Source: Deltaproteobacteria bacterium RIFCSPHIGHO2_01_FULL_43_49 (GTDB taxonomy: Bacteria > UBA10199 > SPLOWO2-01-44-7). Taken from it: DNA of 64,000 bases. Of the stretch, positions 15,944-23,946 are shown in pieces; the first letter of the stretch is position 1, and each line of letters starts with the position of its first letter. Both the position numbers and the translations under genes were made by a program. Location of the stretch: NCBI GenBank assembly GCA_001798075.1, contig MGRG01000005.1, positions 193,148 through 257,147 of the forward strand, read 5' to 3'. The notes under the pieces are model-generated. The model was not told where the DNA came from. It saw nothing but the letters and a program-made list of their open reading frames with translations, and ran no database searches.

Positions 15944-17116
15944 CTAGTATAAAAGGTAGGGCTTACGTTGTCTTACAAAAGAGGAAGAAGGTTCTGCCAC
16001 CCATTCTAAAAGTTCTCTCAAAGGAAGATGCTTTTCCAGTGCCTGGCGCACGGTTGCATCACCTGTTAATAAATCGATTGCCGGAATGTCTTCTATAAAT
16101 TCATAGGGCTCCAGTCTCCATTGGAAGCCTTTATCGTGATAGAGGGTGTACAAAGCCCATATCAAAGCAATACCGGTAACATAAGGCTTGAAAATTTCCC
16201 GATCCGTAACTTTCAGGCGAACACCAAAACATTTTTGACCTACCCATTTTTGGAGTGTCGGCGTGAATTCAACAGGCTCAAACTGAACTCCGGGCAGGCG
16301 AAATTCACTTAAGGATTCTAGACATTCTGCTGGTTTAACAAATGGAGCCCCCGTAATTTCAAATGGGATGTCTGTTCCTCTTCCCTCTGAGATGTTTGTC
16401 CCTTCCAGTAAACAAGTCCCCGGATACAATAGCGCTTGCAAAGGCGAGCGCATGTTTGGAGAGGGGTTGGTCCATTTCAAACCGGTTTGATCCCAAAACC
16501 ATTCGCGCTGCCAACCTTCCATTGGCATCACTGTCAGATCACAATTCAAATCTTCCGTGTCATTGATCATGCGGGCCATTTCGCCAATTGTCATCCCGTG
16601 CCGCACCGGCATTGGGTAGAGCCCCACAAAAGAAGTGTAGCCTTCTTTGTTGCTCTCCCCCTCAACAGAAAGACCATTAATTGGATTGGGCCTGTCACAA
16701 ACAATCACCTCTTTTTTATATTTAGCACAAGCTTCCATGCACATGGTGGTCGTCCAAATATAGGTGTAGTAGCGAGCTCCAACATCTTGCAAATCAATCA
16801 CCAAGCAGTCGATATTTTTAAGCATCTCTTCGGTTGGTTTCAGTTCCTTTTCGGAATGGCCATAAAGACTGTAAAGAGGCAACCCCGTTGGTTTGTGGGT
16901 GCCAGAGTGGACCGGCTCCATGTCTTGAGCTGAAGTAGTAATGCCGTGTTCGGGTCCAAAAAGGGTTGTGACTTTCCAATCTTTTGAGTCAACAAGTAAG
17001 TCCAGGATATGTTGGCCCTTTGAATTGACACTGGCTTGATGGCCCAAAATGCCAACTCTTTTTCCCTTCAATTTGTCTTTGAAATCTCTAGTTAAAATGT
17101 CGAGCCCAAGTAGCAT
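15944..17116 (-). CDS. DUF1343 family protein (exo-beta-N-acetylmuramidase NamZ-like)
   Basis: GLDILTRDF..LKGKRVGILGHQASV ... LFGPEHG matches the DUF1343 N-terminus. Confidence 0.75.
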   Translation of the reverse strand: MLLGLDILTRDFKDKLKGKRVGILGHQASVNSKGQHILDLLVDSKDWKVTTLFGPEHGITTSAQDMEPVHSGTHKPTGLPLYSLYGHSEKELKPTEEMLKNIDCLVIDLQDVGARYYTYIWTTTMCMEACAKYKKEVIVCDRPNPINGLSVEGESNKEGYTSFVGLYPMPVRHGMTIGEMARMINDTEDLNCDLTVMPMEGWQREWFWDQTGLKWTNPSPNMRSPLQALLYPGTCLLEGTNISEGRGTDIPFEITGAPFVKPAECLESLSEFRLPGVQFEPVEFTPTLQKWVGQKCFGVRLKVTDREIFKPYVTGIALIWALYTLYHDKGFQWRLEPYEFIEDIPAIDLLTGDATVRQALEKHLPLRELLEWVAEPSSSFVRQRKPYLLY

Positions 17117-17174
17117 GGCGGGATGCGCATATCATAACTTGCCTGGTTGTCAAAGTGTGCTATGGAAACCCGCC

Positions 17175-17588
17175 ATGCATATTTCTCGCAAACAACATTT
17201 TATTGACGCCGCCCTTTTGTGGACGATCACAGGTTCTGCGCTCGGTTTTTTTGGGATGAAGTGGGTTGTATTGGGGTTTCCTCAAAAATGGGCTCTTATA
17301 TGGATTGGTGTTTGTATTGCAGTCGGTTTTCTTAAAGGACATTTTGCCATTGCCCGTTCTGCAGATCGCGCCATTCAAAGAATTCAGAATTTTCCGGAGC
17401 GCACCCCCTTCTTCAAAGTCTTTGGCAAAGGACAGTGGATTTTGGTAACAGCGATGATGGGGTTGGGAATGATTTTGCGCGTTTTGCATGTTGATAAAAG
17501 CTACCGCGGAATTGTTTTAAGTATTGTGGGTGTTGCTTTGCTATGGGCCTCTCGGGAATTTTGGAAAGCAGCATGCAAGCAATCCTGA
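17175..17588 (+). CDS. hypothetical small membrane protein
   Basis: Three to four hydrophobic helices. Start uncertain (the ORF-track start at 17049 overlaps the upstream gene). Confidence 0.4.
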   Translation: MHISRKQHFIDAALLWTITGSALGFFGMKWVVLGFPQKWALIWIGVCIAVGFLKGHFAIARSADRAIQRIQNFPERTPFFKVFGKGQWILVTAMMGLGMILRVLHVDKSYRGIVLSIVGVALLWASREFWKAACKQS

Positions 17589-17959
17589 CAGAAAAAGCAC
17601 CCAAACCGATTGGTCCTTACTCTCAAGCAATTCTTGCCAACGGCTTTCTTTTTTTATCGGGCCAAATTCCAATCGACCCTAAAACAAATGCGGTTTCCCT
17701 TTTTGATGGAGATGTTGGAAAGCAAACGGAACTTGTTTTAAAAAATATTCAAGCCATTCTCGATTCGCAAAAACTTTCTTTAGCCTCGGTTGTTAAAACG
17801 TCCATTTTTTTGAAAGATTTATCTCAATTTAATAAGGTCAACGAAATCTACGCCAAATTTTTTGGGCCTCACAAACCTGCCCGCACAACGGTTGAAGTTT
17901 CAAACCTTCCAAAAGGTGCGGCGATAGAAATCGAAGCAATCGCTATTGCTGTTGTTTAG
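17573..17959 (+). CDS. ridA: RidA family reactive-intermediate deaminase (YjgF/TdcF)
   Basis: APKPIGPYSQAI..NGFLFLSGQIP ... ARTTVEVSNLPKGAAIEIEAIA. Canonical RidA. Confidence 0.88.
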   Translation: MQAILTEKAPKPIGPYSQAILANGFLFLSGQIPIDPKTNAVSLFDGDVGKQTELVLKNIQAILDSQKLSLASVVKTSIFLKDLSQFNKVNEIYAKFFGPHKPARTTVEVSNLPKGAAIEIEAIAIAVV

Positions 17960-19131
17960 ACAAGTTCGGGTAAAACCTTCTCAAAAAAATCTTTATAGGA
18001 AAGAGCACATTCTCCCTTTGAAAACACTTGTCGAGTTTGCCCAGTGTAAACTAAAAATTTATCTACTTTCTTGTGGGCGACACTTTCAAAAGAACGAAGC
18101 CCTTTCATGTCAACCTCTTGCGCATTTTTTGAGAGCTTACATTCAATAGCAATGAGTTTTTCCCCAATGTCTAAGATAAAATCAACTTCGACACCCGTGT
18201 CTGTGCGGTAGGCGCTAAATTTCCACTCTTTCTTTTCAGAGTGAATAAAATGAATGCATTCAAGGCAGACCCATTGTTCAAAGAGTTTGCCTGTTTCAAT
18301 AGGGCTTAGTTTTTGCTTGTGTAGCCCCAAAATGGCATTCCTCACCCCCATATCAAAAAAAACAAAGCGATCGCGTTGACTCACACGTCTTTTACTGGAA
18401 GTTGGCCTAAAGGGGGGAATTCTAAAAACGATTAATGTTTCCTCAAGGATAGTGTAGAATCTTCGGATTGTCTCTTTGGGGATTTCGCTATCGTTTGCTA
18501 TTTTGCTGTAATTGACCCACTCGCCACTGCTTTGCGCAGCTAAATCAAGAAAACGGGCATACGCCCCGATGTTTTTGGCAATGGCTTCACTTTGAATTTC
18601 CTCTCTCAAATAAGTATTGGCATAACTAGAAAGGGTTTCGGCCCCTTCTTCCTCATCTAGATAGACTCCAGGGAGTGAGCCAGTTTGCAACGCTTTTTCT
18701 AAGTTAAAGAGAGAGCCTAGTTCCCAGAAAGAAAGTGGATCTAAATACTCTAGCAAAATCCGTCCGGGAAGAAGATTGGCTCCACCCCGTTTTAATTTGC
18801 GTGCACTGGAACCAGTCAAAATAAATCGGTGTGGAGAGCCAACATCTAGATGAGCTTGAAGAGTATTCAATAGCGAAGGGATTCTCTGAATTTCATCGAA
18901 GACAATTAAGGAGGGTTTGTCGATTGCCGCTAGTTCCCTTTTTATTTTCCCCGGATCTTTTGAATAAGAGAGATAGAGTTCTTCATCGGCCAAATTAATA
19001 ATGAGGTTTGGATTTAGGGATTGGGCGAGTGTTGATTTTCCAACTTGGCGTGGACCAAGCAAGAGTATGTTTTTATTAGATTTTTTTAGTGAGTCGGTTA
19101 TTTTGCGAACTATCATATAGGTCATATACAT
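17956..19131 (-). CDS. AAA family ATPase with C-terminal DUF4143-like domain
   Basis: Walker A GPRQVGKST. About 390 aa with the AAA_14 plus DUF4143 layout. Confidence 0.65.
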   Translation of the reverse strand: MYMTYMIVRKITDSLKKSNKNILLLGPRQVGKSTLAQSLNPNLIINLADEELYLSYSKDPGKIKRELAAIDKPSLIVFDEIQRIPSLLNTLQAHLDVGSPHRFILTGSSARKLKRGGANLLPGRILLEYLDPLSFWELGSLFNLEKALQTGSLPGVYLDEEEGAETLSSYANTYLREEIQSEAIAKNIGAYARFLDLAAQSSGEWVNYSKIANDSEIPKETIRRFYTILEETLIVFRIPPFRPTSSKRRVSQRDRFVFFDMGVRNAILGLHKQKLSPIETGKLFEQWVCLECIHFIHSEKKEWKFSAYRTDTGVEVDFILDIGEKLIAIECKLSKNAQEVDMKGLRSFESVAHKKVDKFLVYTGQTRQVFSKGECALSYKDFFEKVLPELV

Positions 19132-19199
19132 TGAAAATGACCTAAGCGCAAGTCAAAATGGGAGCAACTTTTCTCAAAATTTGCCGATAACTATAAGGA

Positions 19200-20426
19200 A
19201 TGGCGCCTATAGCGAATATATTGGGTATTGGTACTGCACAAGCCTCTTTAGCCCAAATGGAGGCCAGTCTTGTCATCTCTCAAGATGAGACAGGGGTTGA
19301 AAATCCACCAGCTAATGCAGACCAATTTGTAATAGCAGATGAGCCCCTTATTTCTCCAAAAATTCATTCTAACTCGTCTCCTGAATCACTTGCGGCTTTC
19401 GGGATGTTTGGTCTTTCACCTCTATCACTAGCGATTTGTGCGGGCGGTTTGTTAATGGCAAAATTAATGCGCCGACCCCTCTCGCAACTCCTTATCACTA
19501 CGCTTGGGACAACTTGGGCAGCAACGACTATGGTTGAAGGAAATTGGCCTCTTGCCATTGAGCTCTATCTTAGCGGGTGTGCAACGTTAAGAATGATCAA
19601 ACATTTCAATATACACCCCTCTACTCAAAAACCAATAGATGCCAGAAGTTTTCGGGACTATTTTGATGTTTCAAAATTACCTCGGCTTCGTGATAAGTAT
19701 GGTCGCGATGAATGTTATACAAAAGCAGTAGACGCACTCGAAAAAATTTTAATGGACAATCCTAAACTGCAGCAGTTTTTTGATTTCGATCCGCGCCACC
19801 AAAGTTTGTTGGATGAAATGGGTTGGGTAAGAATTGCAGACGACTATATAGGAAAAATTTCAACGGCAACAGGTTCAGCAAAAGGCATTTTTGTTCCCAT
19901 GGATGAAACGTTATATACGGGTGGTGTTGTTGAATTTGGTGTCCATGAATTAGCACACGTTCTTCATTTTACTGCTATTAGAAAGAAAGTGTCATTCAAT
20001 GATCTTCAGAGGGTTAAAGAATACTTTGATACTCATGATGTCCATCAACGCATTGCCCCTTTTTTAGATACGGTGAGACAACATTTAGTGAAGAGTGATT
20101 CGGGATCTCCAATTCCACATGAAGTAAGAAATGCAGCAGCAATATTAATCTTCCAAATTGGCAAAGGAGAATTTGGAGGTCACCATGAAAGTGTCCCCAC
20201 ATTTTTACAAACAAAACTCAGTTTTTTTGCAAGAAGCCTAAAATTCAGGCCTTGGATGTTTATAAATCAATTAATCGCCTGGTTCCTCATGCCGATGGCT
20301 TGGATTGGTGGAATTCATCGCGACACTCAGTTTTTGAATCCTCTCTTTGCTTATGACAATCCATTTATTCTTAGGCGCGTTCTTAAATTAGGTCCAATTG
20401 ATTCACTTCTGGGAAGCGAAGGTTAA
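19200..20426 (+). CDS. hypothetical protein with HEXXH zinc-metallopeptidase-like motif
   Basis: GVVEFGVHELAHVLHF. Hydrophobic segments near residues 60-90. Weak N-terminal resemblance to the 7298/14297/29459 family (GIGTAQASLAQ versus GLTSDQSFILAQ). Confidence 0.5.
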   Translation: MAPIANILGIGTAQASLAQMEASLVISQDETGVENPPANADQFVIADEPLISPKIHSNSSPESLAAFGMFGLSPLSLAICAGGLLMAKLMRRPLSQLLITTLGTTWAATTMVEGNWPLAIELYLSGCATLRMIKHFNIHPSTQKPIDARSFRDYFDVSKLPRLRDKYGRDECYTKAVDALEKILMDNPKLQQFFDFDPRHQSLLDEMGWVRIADDYIGKISTATGSAKGIFVPMDETLYTGGVVEFGVHELAHVLHFTAIRKKVSFNDLQRVKEYFDTHDVHQRIAPFLDTVRQHLVKSDSGSPIPHEVRNAAAILIFQIGKGEFGGHHESVPTFLQTKLSFFARSLKFRPWMFINQLIAWFLMPMAWIGGIHRDTQFLNPLFAYDNPFILRRVLKLGPIDSLLGSEG

Positions 20427-20792
20427 TCAGGAAAGCGATTCTTGTTGCCAACCATGACAAAGGGCATTGAGCCAGGCAAGTTTTCCCTGAGATGCTTTTG
20501 AAATAGGAGAGTTTGATTTTTGAAGAAGGCTTTGAAAAAAAGGCTCGACGATTTCTTCTCGTTCCTCTTTGGTGGTCGCCGCCATCAATTTGACAAAAAG
20601 GTCTCCAACCAATTTGCCATCCCCAATGTGAGGGGACAGAATTGCAGCACGAAAAGTAGCCAACCTTGTATTTAAATCTCCTTTTTCAAAAACTTTTTGC
20701 AAGAGATGGGTGGCTTCTTTAGGCCTGAAAGTGGCAACCTTTTGAAGACCATAAAGATAAGCATGCGTTTTTCCGTTCAATACATTTAACAT
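20427..20792 (-). CDS. hypothetical protein
   Basis: ORF only. Translationally coupled (7-nt overlap) to 20786..21268. Confidence 0.4.
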   Translation of the reverse strand: MLNVLNGKTHAYLYGLQKVATFRPKEATHLLQKVFEKGDLNTRLATFRAAILSPHIGDGKLVGDLFVKLMAATTKEEREEIVEPFFQSLLQKSNSPISKASQGKLAWLNALCHGWQQESLS

Positions 20793-21268
20793 AGGCTATC
20801 TAATGCCGGCAAAATAGCGCCAATATCTCCACAAGCAATTTGAACCAAACGAAACCAGGGCTCACTTAGTTTATTTGTTGAAGTGTTCAAAGCATCTTTA
20901 AGCATCTGTTGAACAACCAATGGTTGCAGCTCACTTAAAGTTACCAATCTTGGCAAATCGTTATCAAAGAAATATCGAATGACATTATCTGGAGCGGTAG
21001 AAAGTCTTTCAATTTTGGCAATCAGTTGGGTTGTCTCTTCTTTGACATGGCGCCTTGTCAATAATGTTTGCACCCATCGGATCGGCCTCCACGTCGGCTC
21101 CGCTAATTTTACCGATTGTTCTTCTTGTGGTGGGATATATTCATCTATTGCGATACCTGGATCGGTGACTTCATCGTTGTCATTGCGAGGCTGTAAGGCC
21201 GAAGCAATCTCCCGTGTGATCGTAGATTGCTTCGCTTCGCTCGCAATGACAAATTTAAACCAGCTCAT
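20786..21268 (-). CDS. hypothetical protein
   Basis: ORF only. 4-bp overlap with queF upstream. Confidence 0.4.
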
Positions 21269-21639
21269 CGTTCAATATCCCTCGATTTTTCTCCATGCGT
21301 TGCGGTAACCGTTGTTGTAATTCCGCCTCTCACACTAAAAACTGCTTGAATTTCCATCCAGCTCGGCTCCACCACATAAACCAGATCATTTAAAATTTGG
21401 TTCGCCACTTTTTCGTGAAAAGCCCCTTCATTGCGAAAAGACCAGAGGTAATTTTTGAGTGCTTTGAGTTCAAAACACATTTTGGCCGGCACATATCGAA
21501 TATGGATAGTTGCAAAATCGGGCTGTCCCGTTCTGGGACAAAGACAGGTAAATTCCGGGCATTCACAGTGAACGACGTAATTTCTTTCCGGATAAGGGTT
21601 TGGAAAAACCTCTATATTTTTTGATGGTTCGCTTGACAC
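21265..21639 (-). CDS. queF: NADPH-dependent 7-cyano-7-deazaguanine reductase (YkvM type)
   Basis: [29 protein letters not shown] ... the FRN.G motif. The ORF-track start at 21675 is a TTG. The GTG at 21639 is preceded by AAGAGGGGAG and is more plausible. Confidence 0.88.
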
Positions 21640-21700
21640 TGCTCCCCTCTTATCAAATTGATTTGGGCACCGCAACCGATTTTAAATCGCCGATTAGGAG

Positions 21701-21736
21701 TTGTTCTTCCCAGTGGCGAACCACTGGGAAGAACAA
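21701..21736. other. perfect 16-bp stem-loop with 4-nt loop (UUCG on the queF-sense strand)
   Basis: ttgttcttcccagtgg cgaa ccactgggaagaacaa. Sits in the divergent region between queF and the exonuclease gene. Confidence 0.7.
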
Positions 21737-21808
21737 TGCACCATACTATCGCGGCGTTTGCCAACAGCCACCGGCTGTTGTTTTCCGCCTTGATTTCCCT
21801 CGTTTTGG

Positions 21809-22417
21809 TTGATAAGCAGCTCTTCTATGTCTGGCCAAAACATTATTGTTTTAGACCTAGAAACCAAAAGGACCTTTGAAGATGTTGGTGGAAGGGAAAA
21901 CTTGGGCGAATTGGGGGTTTCTTTGGTGGGGGTTTATTCTTATCTTCATGGCGACTATCAAGCTTTTTGGGAAGATGATTTTCCAAAACTCTTGAGTCTG
22001 CTCGTTAGCAAACCGTTGGTAGTTGGCTTCAATCAGAAACGTTTTGATCTGCCTGTTTTGCAGCCTTATTTTAAAAATTTTGATCTCAAAAGTTTACCAA
22101 TACTCGATATTTTGGATGAGTTGACCAAAACTTTGGGCCACCGAGTCAGTTTGGATAGTGTGGCGCAGGCAACACTGGGGACTAGAAAAAGTGGCCATGG
22201 TTTGGATGCGATTCGCTACTGGAACCGAAAGGAACTCGATAAATTAAAAAAATATTGTTTGGATGATGTACGCATTACAAAAGAGGTTTATGAATATGGG
22301 GCCAAGCATGGTGAACTTATATTTATGGATAAATTCAGCACCTCAAAATTAAAAGCGCCGGTTTCTTGGAAGTTGCAAACTAACGAAAAGGAAGATAAAC
22401 AGTATTCTCTTTTTTAA
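21809..22417 (+). CDS. DEDDy-type 3'-5' exonuclease domain protein
   Basis: IIVLDLETK (Exo I), FNQKRFDLPVL (Exo II-like), and the Y-x3-D motif YCLDD near the C-terminus. Confidence 0.55.
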   Translation: MISSSSMSGQNIIVLDLETKRTFEDVGGRENLGELGVSLVGVYSYLHGDYQAFWEDDFPKLLSLLVSKPLVVGFNQKRFDLPVLQPYFKNFDLKSLPILDILDELTKTLGHRVSLDSVAQATLGTRKSGHGLDAIRYWNRKELDKLKKYCLDDVRITKEVYEYGAKHGELIFMDKFSTSKLKAPVSWKLQTNEKEDKQYSLF

Positions 22418-22420
22418 ATT

Positions 22421-23332
22421 ATGACGGATGATTTTATCATTATTGGTGGTGGGCCCGCTGGATGTTCGGCTGCCCTTTTTGCGGCTCGTGTGAAAAGAAA
22501 AGTGGTCATGATCCACAAAGGAACAACCCCTCTTATTCATTCTTTCAATTGGTTGCTCCCTGGTTTTCCGAATGGATTGGGTCCCGCCGAGTGGCTTAAA
22601 AACATGCGTTCCCAAATTGAAACTTCCGGATTTACCTTTGTGGAAGAAGAGGTTACCCAAGCAGCGCTTGGGGCCAGTGTGAAACAAATTATCACCAGCT
22701 CTGGAAAGGTTTGGGAAGGCCCCGCCATCATTTTGGCAACCGGTTGTTATGACCGAACCGGCTTTATAGAAGGAGAGGCAAAATTTGTCGGTCACGGCGT
22801 TTTTTACAACGCCTATCAAGATGCCTCTTTGTGTGATGGTCAGAGTGTGGTTGTGGAAGGAAAGAATGATCAGGCAATTAGAGAAGCCCTTTATCTTTCT
22901 CGTTTTGCCAGCAAAATCTATTTTATTGTTCCTGCCATGAAATTAGAAGCGGATGAAAAATTGATTGGCGCTCTTCGGGCCAATCCCAATGTTAATCTTC
23001 TCTTGAGTGCCAGCATTAAAAAAATCGAAGGGGAAAATCAACTGGAAGGGGTAACTGTGTTGAGCGCTGGTGAAGAAAAAAAGATTGAGGCAAAAGCGGT
23101 CTTCCTTTTTGCCCGCCAGAGCAAACCAAAATATGATTTTCTCAAGGGAACTATTGAAATTTCTGAAGAAGGTTGTGTTTTGGTGGATGATCAAATGATG
23201 ACTTCAATTCCTGGTGTTTTTGCCTGTGGGGATATGCTCTCCGGTGCGCCACAACTCCAGTTTGTATCCGCCGCGCAAGGTTTAGTTGCCGCCATGAATG
23301 CCGATCGATATCTTTCCAATCCTAATCTGTGA
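22421..23332 (+). CDS. NAD(P)/FAD-dependent oxidoreductase (thioredoxin-reductase-like fold)
   Basis: N-terminal FAD motif IIGGGPAGCSAA. Second dinucleotide-binding region. GVFACGDM near the C-terminus. Confidence 0.75.
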   Translation: MTDDFIIIGGGPAGCSAALFAARVKRKVVMIHKGTTPLIHSFNWLLPGFPNGLGPAEWLKNMRSQIETSGFTFVEEEVTQAALGASVKQIITSSGKVWEGPAIILATGCYDRTGFIEGEAKFVGHGVFYNAYQDASLCDGQSVVVEGKNDQAIREALYLSRFASKIYFIVPAMKLEADEKLIGALRANPNVNLLLSASIKKIEGENQLEGVTVLSAGEEKKIEAKAVFLFARQSKPKYDFLKGTIEISEEGCVLVDDQMMTSIPGVFACGDMLSGAPQLQFVSAAQGLVAAMNADRYLSNPNL

Positions 23333-23946
23333 CCCCACGGGCCCTCATTTTTGATTTTGACGGCGTGTTGGTTGATTTAGAACCCTTGCACATGAAAGCC
23401 TGGCAAGAAGTTTTAAAACCGATTGATCTTACTTTTTCGGACAAAGACTATGAAGAGCGTTATTTGGGACTCAATGACAGAGATTTTTTAGCCCTCCGTT
23501 TTAAAGAGGCGGGCAAAAAACTTAGTCAGACCCTTTGCAATGAATTGATCCAAAAAAAAGAACACAAAACAACAAAGTTTTTTTCAAAAGAGATACCACT
23601 CATTGATGGGGTTCAAGATTTTTTGAAAAAAGTTTCTCAAAAATATCCGTTAGCTATTGTTACGGGTGGGCTTTCTAATGAAGTCTATTTTGTTTTGGAT
23701 CATTTAAAATGGAGACCTTTGTTTAAAATTATTATTACTTCTGGCGATGTTCAAAAGGGCAAACCCGACCCCGAAGGATTTTTGAAGGCGTACGAAAAAT
23801 TAAAAAATCTTTGTGAGTGGAACCCCCCTTTGCAAAAATCAGAATGCCTTATTTTTGAAGACTCTCAGTATGGCATGGAAGCTGCCAAGAGAGCGGGCAT
23901 CCCATTTGTGCAAGTTCGCGGGAGTCTTAGAGGTTTTGATTATTGA
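23329..23946 (+). CDS. HAD-IA family hydrolase (beta-phosphoglucomutase-like phosphatase)
   Basis: LIFDFDGVLVD motif I. K..DP motif. EDS.YG motif IV. Confidence 0.85.
   Translation: MTPRALIFDFDGVLVDLEPLHMKAWQEVLKPIDLTFSDKDYEERYLGLNDRDFLALRFKEAGKKLSQTLCNELIQKKEHKTTKFFSKEIPLIDGVQDFLKKVSQKYPLAIVTGGLSNEVYFVLDHLKWRPLFKIIITSGDVQKGKPDPEGFLKAYEKLKNLCEWNPPLQKSECLIFEDSQYGMEAAKRAGIPFVQVRGSLRGFDY

What the first reader, a model, noticed from the sequence alone, without database searches (positions are those of the whole stretch)
19200..21268. HEXXH-motif hypothetical protein packed tail-to-tail against two translationally coupled unknown genes next to a DUF4143 ATPase
ORF 19200..20426 carries GVVEFGVHELAHVLHF, a zincin-type HExxH motif, plus hydrophobic segments. 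There is no signal peptide and no fit to a known peptidase family layout. Its stop codon directly abuts (zero spacer) the stop codon of 20427..20792. That gene is coupled by a 7-nt overlap to 20786..21268. The DUF4143 AAA ATPase (17956..19131) lies immediately upstream on the opposite strand. This is a cluster of four uncharacterised genes inserted between ridA and queF, and could be a small accessory module such as a defence or effector-immunity set.
Basis: partly seen in the sequence, partly recalled or inferred. Interest (0 to 1): 0.55.

Follow-up and report, generated by a model that had tools for sequence, protein, structure and literature searches.

The report
Orphan zinc-protease-like gene in variable slot
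The four genes are not one module: two belong to a conserved queF operon, one is a common stand-alone candidate defence ATPase, and the HExxH gene belongs to a rare, unannotated family that looks like a thermolysin-type zinc protease and has no conserved partner genes.

Summary
All stated coordinates, overlaps and the HELAH motif are correct. The "four-gene inserted module" reading is not supported.

In seven related loci, ORF3 (20786-21268) and ORF2 (20427-20792) always lie directly downstream of queF, overlapping it or within 3 nt. In three loci they are fused into one protein. They are syntenic backbone genes.

Only the stretch between ORF2 and ridA varies between relatives. It is empty in one, and holds HEPN/MNT, AbiEii plus queC, or unknown genes in others. 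Here it holds two unrelated genes:
- **DUF4143/AAA_14 ATPase:** matches the single-gene defence candidate PDC-S01 (E=1e-61).
- **HExxH ORF:** belongs to a family of only 29 clusters among 1.84 billion proteins.

Across 28 family members (about 19% identity) the invariant residues are H249, E250, H253 and E330. E330 sits in an "EA[IV][AG][ST]" helix. H256 and Y385 are near-invariant. This is a gluzincin signature.

No Pfam, NCBIfam or PADLOC model reaches threshold. A confident AF2 model (pLDDT 83) has no Foldseek neighbour in PDB or BFVD. Nine independent homologue contexts share no partner gene.

The most likely function is a stand-alone, fast-evolving Zn-metallopeptidase of unknown substrate. 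Interest is modest.

The parts
19200..20426 (+). HExxH ORF (408 aa). Member of a rare, unannotated gluzincin-like family. Residues 1-70 are predicted disordered and 70-408 form a compact, mostly helical domain.
   Evidence: ORF. Homologues: 5 by word-indexed search and 29 clusters by exhaustive hmmsearch of 1.84e9 proteins. AF2 with the 28-sequence alignment: pLDDT 83.4, pTM 0.79. No Pfam, NCBIfam or PADLOC family.
19944..19967 (+). Active-site helix motif H249-E250-L-A-H253-V-L-H256 (family consensus HE[LM]xHALH).
   Evidence: Translation. H249, E250 and H253 are invariant in 28/28 and H256 in 26/28. The motif lies in helix 244-263, directly after the beta-hairpin 230-232/237-239.
20184..20210 (+). 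Putative third-ligand 'glutamate helix': H-E330-S-V-P-T-F-L-Q (family consensus hEA[IV][AG][ST]xFD).
   Evidence: Translation. E330 is invariant in 28/28. It lies in helix 326-338.
20349..20426 (+). Conserved C-terminal tail AY385DNPFILRRVLKLGPIDSLLGSEG (family consensus GYxN...GLxDSLL). Y385 is a candidate transition-state residue.
   Evidence: Translation. Y385 in 26/28 and N387 in 24/28. The tail is almost invariant among close homologues. Confident helix 388-404.
17956..19131 (-). AAA_14 + DUF4143 ATPase with a PD-(D/E)xK-like C-terminal region. Matches the single-gene defence candidate PDC-S01. It is independent cargo, transcribed divergently from the HExxH gene.
   Evidence: Pfam AAA_14 1.2e-22, DUF4143 1.2e-30, weak Mrr_cat. 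PADLOC PDC-S01 1.4e-61. Description of PDC-S01 in PMC12988326.
19132..19199 (.). 68-bp divergent intergenic region between the ATPase and the HExxH gene.
   Evidence: Coordinates. One weak sigma-70-like match at 19131-19159(+), 9/12; promoter-like matches across the scanned region (17400-21900) are no more frequent than in shuffles.
20427..20792 (-). ORF2 (121 aa). This is the C-terminal half of a lineage-specific helical protein of the queF operon. It is not part of the insert.
   Evidence: 17 homologues at 60-100% identity. Always follows ORF3 and queF. Fused to ORF3 in L006, L015 and L016.
20786..21268 (-). ORF3 (160 aa). This is the N-terminal half of the same unit. Its ATG overlaps the queF stop codon (ATGA).
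   Evidence: 10 homologues. The same queF overlap or abutment is seen in L005, L006, L007, L015 and L016.
21179..21250 (-). 72-nt palindromic repeat element (GTCATTGCGAG...CTCGCAATGAC) lying in frame within the first ~30 codons of ORF3, just after the queF stop.
   Evidence: Sequence. RNA fold -39.9 kcal/mol, z=-5.2. Arms located. The same element sits at the same place in L007. Further copies occur elsewhere in L006.
21265..21675 (-). queF (preQ1 synthase), first gene of the queF-ORF3-ORF2 operon.
   Evidence: Pfam QueF 9.8e-34. TIGR03139 2.9e-49.
17543..17959 (+). ridA, the other conserved border of the variable slot.
   Evidence: Pfam Ribonuc_L-PSP 3.3e-40 and TIGR00004. Orthologues in L006 and L009.

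Best explanation
The region is a composite of three independent things.

(1) queF-ORF3-ORF2 is a conserved, translationally coupled operon of this uncultivated groundwater 'Deltaproteobacteria' lineage. ORF3 and ORF2 are two halves of one helical protein.

(2) The stretch between ORF2 and ridA is a flexible slot whose content differs between relatives. In this genome it holds two unrelated, divergently transcribed single-gene cargoes.

(3) One cargo is a PDC-S01-type AAA_14/DUF4143 ATPase-nuclease candidate defence gene. The other, the HExxH ORF, belongs to a rare, previously undescribed, fast-evolving family.

The conservation pattern of the HExxH family is that of a gluzincin zinc metallopeptidase:
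- Zn2+ would be held by H249, H253 and E330, the last sitting on a downstream 'EA[IV][AG][ST]' helix.
- E250 would act as general base.
- Y385 and/or H256 would help stabilise the transition state.
- Moderately hydrophobic helices (74-135 and 347-369) pack into or flank the catalytic domain.

Shown here: the synteny, the family's rarity, the conserved residues, the confident model, and the lack of any conserved partner gene. Inferred: metal binding, peptidase activity and stand-alone action. The substrate is unknown.
For: Synteny:
- The backbone metH-HAD-TrxR-exo | queF-ORF3-ORF2 | slot | ridA-TM-namZ-cdd is conserved at 50-83% amino-acid identity in relatives.
- Slot content is nothing in L009, HEPN plus nucleotidyltransferase in L007/L008, queC plus a 176-aa protein plus AbiEii in L005, a 517-aa unknown in L006, and a sigma70_r4 protein in L015.
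- ORF3 and ORF2 are fused in L006, L015 and L016.

HExxH family:
- Only 29 clusters were found in 1.84e9 representative proteins.
- The invariant residues are H249, E250, H253 and E330. L255, H256 and Y385 are near-invariant, at 19% mean column identity.
- The motif sits on helix 244-263 right after a beta-hairpin, and E330 sits on helix 326-338, in a model with pLDDT 83.4 and pTM 0.79.
- The only sub-threshold sequence echoes are zincins: IrrE/M78, CLCA_X, M3, flagellinolysin and SprT.
- HELTHA plus NEAISD is the thermolysin (M4) pattern. That comparison comes from my memory and was not tested here.

Independence of the HExxH gene:
- Nine other homologue loci have no ORF2, ORF3 or DUF4143 neighbour and no shared partner.
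- PDC-S01 is described as a single-gene candidate.

Fast evolution: between syntenic loci L001, L002 and L003, purB is 85-90% identical while the adjacent HExxH protein is 45-61% identical.
Against: - There is no experimental or structural-neighbour support. Foldseek against PDB (best E=0.6, TM about 0.1) and BFVD (best E=0.19) found nothing, not even a zincin core.
- I could not read model coordinates, so the proximity of H249, H253 and E330 is unverified.
- The model has only a two-stranded hairpin where zincins usually have a sheet of three or more strands.
- HExxH motifs also serve non-peptidase metal enzymes.
- The 77-residue His-to-Glu spacing is long for thermolysin-like enzymes.
- Island-type neighbours in several loci leave open a role in a conflict system with a non-adjacent partner.
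Confidence: 0.6

Rival explanations
1. One reading: the four genes (DUF4143 ATPase, HExxH, ORF2, ORF3) form one accessory defence or effector-immunity module inserted between ridA and queF.
For: The genes are physically contiguous with zero or overlapping spacers. Three of them have no annotation. The ATPase matches a defence candidate.
Against: ORF3 and ORF2 are present and coupled to queF in all seven related loci, without the HExxH gene or DUF4143. HExxH homologues never have these neighbours. Tail-to-tail overlaps are the norm in this genome.
Confidence: 0.03
2. The HExxH protein and the DUF4143 ATPase form a two-gene system, for example an ATPase-nuclease sensor plus a protease effector, sharing the 68-bp divergent control region.
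For: They are adjacent and divergently transcribed. Together they exactly fill the variable slot. GC content is the same as the flanks.
Against: None of nine other HExxH-family loci has a DUF4143 or AAA_14 gene nearby. PDC-S01 is catalogued as a single-gene candidate with about 39,000 occurrences, against 29 clusters for the HExxH family.
Confidence: 0.07
3. The HExxH protein is a conflict-system protein in its own right, such as a stand-alone defence or abortive-infection protease, or a secreted or injected toxin, rather than a housekeeping or regulatory peptidase.
For: It lies in a slot that elsewhere holds HEPN/MNT and AbiEii. Homologues sit next to Phd/PIN plus a tyrosine recombinase (L010), an rve transposase (L011), and a serine recombinase with Fic/HipA/HIRAN genes (L012). 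It diverges much faster than neighbouring purB. It has a disordered, variable N-terminus.
Against: There is no PADLOC hit for any of 28 members and no phage or plasmid relatives. There is no conserved immunity-like neighbour. In L001-L003 it sits stably upstream of the purB operon. There is no recognisable secretion signal.
Confidence: 0.2
4. The conserved HExxH/E site binds metal for non-proteolytic chemistry, such as another hydrolase or an Fe/2OG-type HExxH hydroxylase, or for a purely structural role.
For: There is no match to any peptidase model at threshold and no zincin structural neighbour by Foldseek. The fold is almost all-alpha.
Against: The H-E-x-x-H plus downstream E plus Y pattern, and the local beta-hairpin-helix echo of IrrE/M78, are typical of gluzincins. 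No NCBIfam HExxH-hydroxylase model hits any of the 28 members at E<=1.
Confidence: 0.12

Closest known systems
Thermolysin-type gluzincins (MEROPS clan MA(E), e.g. family M4)
   Same: There is an invariant HExxH on a helix and an invariant downstream Glu in a small-residue helix. The family consensus is HE[LM]tHAl... and hEA[IV][AG][ST], which resembles thermolysin's HELTHAV and NEAISD as I recall them. A conserved Tyr lies further downstream.
   Different: The His-to-Glu spacing is 77 residues, against about 20 in thermolysin. There is no Pfam Peptidase_M4 or other MA-clan hit at threshold in any of 28 members. The model is almost all-alpha with only a beta-hairpin. Foldseek finds no PDB neighbour.
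ImmA/IrrE metallopeptidases (Pfam Peptidase_M78; PDB 3dte, 8slm)
   Same: This is the best, though sub-threshold, sequence echo. The stretch 'G-a-Y-x-p...strand...aHEl-HaL' covers the hairpin and the active-site helix. Pfam M78 matches 2 of 28 members at E=0.26.
   Different: E-values of about 0.3-0.7 are not significant. No adjacent HTH repressor substrate gene is conserved. The protein is much larger and has hydrophobic N-terminal helices.
CLCA_X family (NCBIfam NF041907)
   Same: A weak local match around the HExxH region occurs in 4 of 28 members, the best at E=3.9e-4 and 19.9 bits.
   Different: The curated cut-off is 260 bits. Only about 65 of 250 profile positions align. The window protein itself does not match.
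Membrane-embedded gluzincins M48/M56 (HtpX, Ste24, BlaR1)
   Same: There is a long HExxH-to-Glu spacing (about 75-80 residues in HtpX and Ste24, from memory), with hydrophobic helices on both sides of the catalytic region.
   Different: No Pfam M48 or M56 hit. The hydrophobic segments are marginal and not conserved as transmembrane helices. The helices between the motif and the Glu are amphipathic rather than transmembrane.
PDC-S01 (PADLOC candidate defence gene). This applies to the neighbouring DUF4143 ATPase only.
   Same: Full-length HMM match at 1.4e-61. It has an AAA_14 + DUF4143 architecture with a PD-(D/E)xK-like C-terminus, as described in PMC12988326.
   Different: Nothing notable. 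It is an ordinary member of a very common family, and antiviral activity of the family is not yet validated.

Membership tests
Gluzincin metallopeptidases (clan MA(E)) | HExxH motif conserved on a helix (two His ligands plus a catalytic Glu) | tested here: met
   H249, E250 and H253 are invariant in 28/28 homologues and lie in predicted helix 244-263.
Gluzincin metallopeptidases (clan MA(E)) | Third zinc ligand is a Glu on a downstream helix | tested here: inconclusive
   E330 is invariant in 28/28 and lies in helix 326-338 within an EA[IV][AG][ST] motif. Its spatial proximity to H249 and H253 could not be checked because no coordinates were accessible.
Gluzincin metallopeptidases (clan MA(E)) | Zincin fold (mixed beta-sheet plus backing and active-site helices) recognisable by structure comparison | tested here: not met
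Gluzincin metallopeptidases (clan MA(E)) | Zn-dependent peptide-bond hydrolysis | not testable with these tools
   This requires biochemistry.
Any Pfam or NCBIfam peptidase family (M4, M48, M56, M78, M3, SprT, CLCA_X and others) | Profile score at or above the curated cut-off | tested here: not met
   In Pfam, the best zincin-family hits are Astacin at 0.032 (one member) and M78 at 0.26 (two members), among 28 members. In NCBIfam, the best hit is CLCA_X at 19.9 bits against a cut-off of 260. The window protein has none.
Known anti-phage defence systems (PADLOC-DB v2), tested for the HExxH protein, ORF2 and ORF3 | HMM match to a catalogued defence protein | tested here: not met
   No hits for the three window proteins. 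There were no meaningful hits for the 28 HExxH family members, with E>=0.007 to unrelated models in single members.
Multi-gene accessory module (the four genes as a unit) | Co-occurrence and linkage of the genes in other genomes | tested here: not met
   ORF3 and ORF2 are linked to queF without the HExxH gene or DUF4143 in seven loci. HExxH homologues in nine loci lack the other three genes.
Toxin/effector-immunity pair | A conserved small partner gene adjacent to the enzyme | tested here: not met
   All-vs-all BLASTP of ORFs flanking the HExxH gene in six other loci (L001-L004, L010, L011) found no shared neighbour family apart from the syntenic purB and HNH-like genes of L001-L003. The gene tables of L012 and L013 show no ORF2, ORF3 or DUF4143 neighbour.
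PDC-S01 (for gene 17956-19131) | Match to PDC-S01 HMMs, with an AAA_14 + DUF4143 (PD-(D/E)xK-like) architecture | tested here: met
   PADLOC PDLC04790 at 1.4e-61 and PDLC04789 at 1.5e-52. Pfam AAA_14 and DUF4143 above cut-offs, with weak Mrr_cat.
PDC-S01 (for gene 17956-19131) | Antiviral activity | not testable with these tools
   Validation is reported as pending for most PDCs (PMC12988326).

The most novel reading that the evidence does not exclude
The HExxH family is a structurally novel, stand-alone protease. It would combine a gluzincin-like metal site with an otherwise unmatched, mostly helical scaffold carrying hydrophobic helices. It would act as a conflict-system effector, such as a defence or abortive-infection protease or a toxin, travelling between flexible genomic islands of an uncultivated groundwater lineage without any dedicated partner gene.
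Probability: 0.15. Interest if true: 0.6.

Novelty: new variant of a known kind. Interest (0 to 1): 0.3.

Why it matters
If the HExxH family is confirmed, it would add a new family to the gluzincin clan, and possibly a new fold context. It has an unusual scaffold and a very narrow, environment-restricted distribution. It would also be one more gene type found in the flexible, defence-rich islands of poorly known bacteria.

Practically, the analysis removes a false four-gene "module" and separates the region into three parts:
- an ordinary PDC-S01 gene;
- a lineage-specific queF-coupled protein pair;
- an orphan putative protease.

The queF-ORF3-ORF2 linkage is tight or overlapping in every locus, the two ORFs are fused in three, and queC or queG lies nearby in two. 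This is a small testable lead for an unknown accessory factor of 7-deazaguanine/queuosine metabolism.

Tried and rejected
Searches that found nothing:
- Pfam, NCBIfam and PADLOC scans of the three unknown proteins gave nothing. Scans of all 28 HExxH family members gave only sub-threshold zincin echoes.
- Profile searches of PDB sequences were not significant. A3 gave IrrE at E about 0.7. The ORF2 and ORF3 profiles gave only noise.
- The first AF2 run with 5 sequences was unusable at pLDDT 48.5. The second, with 28 sequences, was good.
- Foldseek against PDB and BFVD found no neighbour.
- A genome-contig scan for the HExxH family failed with A3 because no conserved stretch was usable, and found no relative with A1.
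- tblastn against phages and plasmids gave no match.
- tblastn of window proteins against homologue loci showed no linkage.
- There are no HExxH paralogues and no queC or purB in the window.

Ideas considered and rejected:
- Insertion scars: no meaningful flanking repeats and no GC anomaly.
- Rfam: no riboswitch or RNA family in 17000-22500.
- Promoter and terminator scans were no better than shuffles.
- S2P-like LDG Asp ligand in the C-terminal tail: D401 is not conserved.
- Transmembrane protease: hydrophobicity is marginal and not conserved.
Full report
**1. Observation**

All four ORFs exist at the stated coordinates. They are HExxH 19200-20426(+) at 408 aa, ORF2 20427-20792(-) at 121 aa, ORF3 20786-21268(-) at 160 aa, and the ATPase 17956-19131(-) at 391 aa.

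HELAHVLH is encoded at 19944-19967. The + strand TAA at 20424-20426 is followed immediately by the complement of the ORF2 TGA, so the spacer is zero. ORF2 and ORF3 overlap by 7 nt.

The ATPase is AAA_14 + DUF4143. ridA and queF flank the set.

The packing is not special in this genome. ridA/DUF4143 overlap by 4 nt, HAD/metH overlap by 7 nt, and cdd/namZ are 16 nt apart.

**2. The four genes are not one unit**

Homologues of ORF2 (17 proteins) and ORF3 (10 proteins) come from the same contigs. Their loci show a conserved backbone (tblastn):

exo(RNase_H_2) | queF -> ORF3 -> ORF2 | variable slot | ridA - small TM protein - namZ - cdd

- **Coupling to queF:** in the loci where the junction is on the contig, ORF3 overlaps queF's 3' end by 4-20 nt (window, L005, L006, L007, L008, L016) or starts 3 nt after its stop (L015).
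- **Fusions:** ORF3 and ORF2 are fused into a single protein in L006 (274 aa), L015 (264 aa) and L016 (184 aa). They are therefore two halves of one functional unit.
- **Other que genes nearby:** queC lies convergently right after ORF2 in L005. queG lies about 1.3 kb away in L016.
- **No family assignment:** neither half has a Pfam or PDB-sequence relative.

The slot between ORF2 and ridA differs in each relative:

| Locus | Slot content |
|---|---|
| L009 | empty; ORF2 and ridA overlap by 9 nt |
| L007/L008 | HEPN + nucleotidyltransferase |
| L005 | queC + 176-aa protein + AbiEii |
| L006 | 517-aa and 49-aa unknowns |
| L015 | sigma70_r4 protein |
| window | HExxH gene + DUF4143 ATPase |

Only the HExxH gene and the ATPase are "inserted". 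GC content does not differ from the flanks, and no flanking repeats mark an insertion.

**3. The ATPase**

It matches PADLOC PDC-S01 at 1.4e-61. PDC-S01 is a very common single-gene candidate defence family, described as an ATPase fused to a PD-(D/E)xK domain. Its activity is still unvalidated (PMC12988326). This gene is an ordinary member.

**4. The HExxH protein**

- **Rarity:** the word-indexed search found the identical MAG protein ('Deltaproteobacteria bacterium RIFCSPLOWO2_12_FULL_44_12') plus four homologues at 41-46% identity. An exhaustive profile search of 1.84 billion representatives found only 29 proteins. The named sources are uncultivated 'Deltaproteobacteria', 'Pseudomonadota' or 'bacterium K02' MAGs, and one contig is labelled as a groundwater metagenome.
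- **Conserved residues:** in a 28-sequence alignment with 19% mean column identity, the only invariant residues are H249, E250, H253 and E330. L255, H256 and Y385 are near-invariant.
- **Consensus motifs:** HE[LM]xHALH, hEA[IV][AG][ST]xFD, and a C-terminal GYxN...GLxDSLL.
- **Structure model:** with this alignment AF2 gives a confident model with pLDDT 83.4 and pTM 0.79. Residues 70-408 are mostly above 87. It shows a disordered N-terminal 70 residues, then three moderately hydrophobic helices (74-135), then a helical region. A beta-hairpin (230-232/237-239) leads into the HExxH helix (244-263). E330 is on helix 326-338, and a hydrophobic helix (347-369) and the conserved C-terminal helix follow.
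- **Interpretation:** HExxH plus a downstream Glu on a small-residue helix plus a conserved Tyr is the gluzincin signature. I recall thermolysin's HELTHAV and NEAISD as very similar motifs, but that is a lead from memory, not a test.

Membership in any described family fails:
- No Pfam or NCBIfam model reaches threshold in any member. The best zincin echoes are Pfam Astacin at E=0.032 in one member, M78 at E=0.26 in two members, and CLCA_X at 19.9 bits against a 260-bit cut-off.
- The PDB sequence profile search gives IrrE at E about 0.7, over the hairpin plus HExxH only.
- Foldseek finds no neighbour in PDB or BFVD.
- The hydrophobic segments are marginal and not conserved as transmembrane helices.

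**5. Context of HExxH homologues**

| Locus | Neighbours |
|---|---|
| L001, L002, L003 | mutually syntenic; purB operon downstream in all three, HNH/DUF222-like gene upstream in L001 and L002 |
| L004 | divergent from a Macro-domain gene |
| L010 | follows Phd/PIN and a tyrosine recombinase |
| L011 | 1 kb from an rve transposase |
| L012 | borders a serine-recombinase island with Fic, HipA and HIRAN genes |
| L013 | among unknowns, upstream of ZnuA/ABC-3 |

No neighbour family recurs apart from the L001-L003 synteny. None of these loci has DUF4143, ORF2 or ORF3.

Between L001, L002 and L003, purB is 85-90% identical while the adjacent HExxH protein is 45-61% identical. The protein therefore diverges quickly outside its motifs. 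There are no phage or plasmid relatives and no PADLOC hits.

**6. Explanation**

The best-supported reading is a stand-alone, fast-evolving, lineage-restricted putative Zn-metallopeptidase. It sits by historical accident next to a PDC-S01 gene in a flexible slot, and it abuts the end of the queF-ORF3-ORF2 operon only because this genome packs convergent genes without spacers.

The proposed mechanism is inferred. H249, H253 and E330 would bind Zn, E250 would activate water, and Y385 and/or H256 would assist. The substrate is unknown.

A conflict-system role is possible, given the island contexts and the rapid divergence, but it is unproven. A two-gene system with DUF4143 is unlikely. The four-gene module is effectively refuted.

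**7. Novelty and score**

This is a new sequence family, apparently without a close structural neighbour, within a well-known mechanistic class. That makes it a new variant of a known kind. New putative zincin families in metagenomic lineages are not surprising to specialists, so interest is about 0.3.

The queF-coupled ORF3/ORF2 pair and the in-frame palindromic element at its 5' end are secondary leads.

Noticed in passing
window 21179-21250 (- strand); also L007 8018-8089 and L006 near 6880 and 16716: A 72-nt palindromic element (GTCATTGCGAG...CTCGCAATGAC; RNA fold -39.9 kcal/mol, z=-5.2) lies just after the queF stop and is read in frame as codons ~7-30 of ORF3 ('VIASEAKQS...[10 protein letters not shown]'). 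The same element is at the same place in L007, and similar N-termini occur in P0029 and P0031. It is absent from other ORF3 homologues, and further copies occur elsewhere in L006. It is therefore a dispersed repeat that has landed inside a coding 5' end, or it acts as an inter-cistronic hairpin.
   Followed up: partly
window 20427-21675; L005, L006, L007, L008, L015, L016: ORF3 and ORF2 are always immediately downstream of queF, overlapping it or within 3 nt. They are split in most genomes but fused in three. queC (L005) or queG (L016) lies nearby. One homologue (P0032) carries an N-terminal TPR domain. They may be an unknown accessory factor of queuosine/7-deazaguanine metabolism.
   Followed up: partly
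window 21701-21736: A perfect 16-nt inverted repeat (TTGTTCTTCCCAGTGG / CCACTGGGAAGAACAA, 4-nt loop) lies in the queF/exonuclease divergent intergenic region. There is no Rfam match. It could be an operator or a 5' hairpin for queF.
   Followed up: no
window 22417-22421, compared with L005, L006 and L007: Relatives carry a VitK2_biosynth (futalosine-pathway type) gene between the RNase_H_2-like exonuclease and the TrxR-like gene. In the window these two genes are only 3 nt apart and that gene is absent.
   Followed up: no
L005 3906-7145: One relative has a multihaem cytochrome plus an MtrB/PioB-type porin gene pair between the exonuclease gene and queF. This is a second variable point in the same syntenic block.
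   Followed up: no
L010 11201-13474: Directly downstream of the HExxH homologue in L010 is a 757-aa predicted lipoprotein (a lipobox-like LAAC in its N-terminus) with its own, unrelated HEMAH motif and no Pfam family.
   Followed up: no
L013 7225-12847: In this distant family member the HExxH gene's start overlaps the end of an upstream 259-aa unknown gene. Two unknowns and a ZnuA/ABC-3 metal-uptake pair follow. This is a single case, but it is suggestive for a zinc enzyme.
   Followed up: no
window 17956-17959, 20424-20429, 23940-23946: Convergent gene pairs in this genome routinely overlap or abut at their stop codons (ridA/DUF4143, HExxH/ORF2, HAD/metH). This leaves no room for intrinsic terminators between them.
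   Followed up: partly
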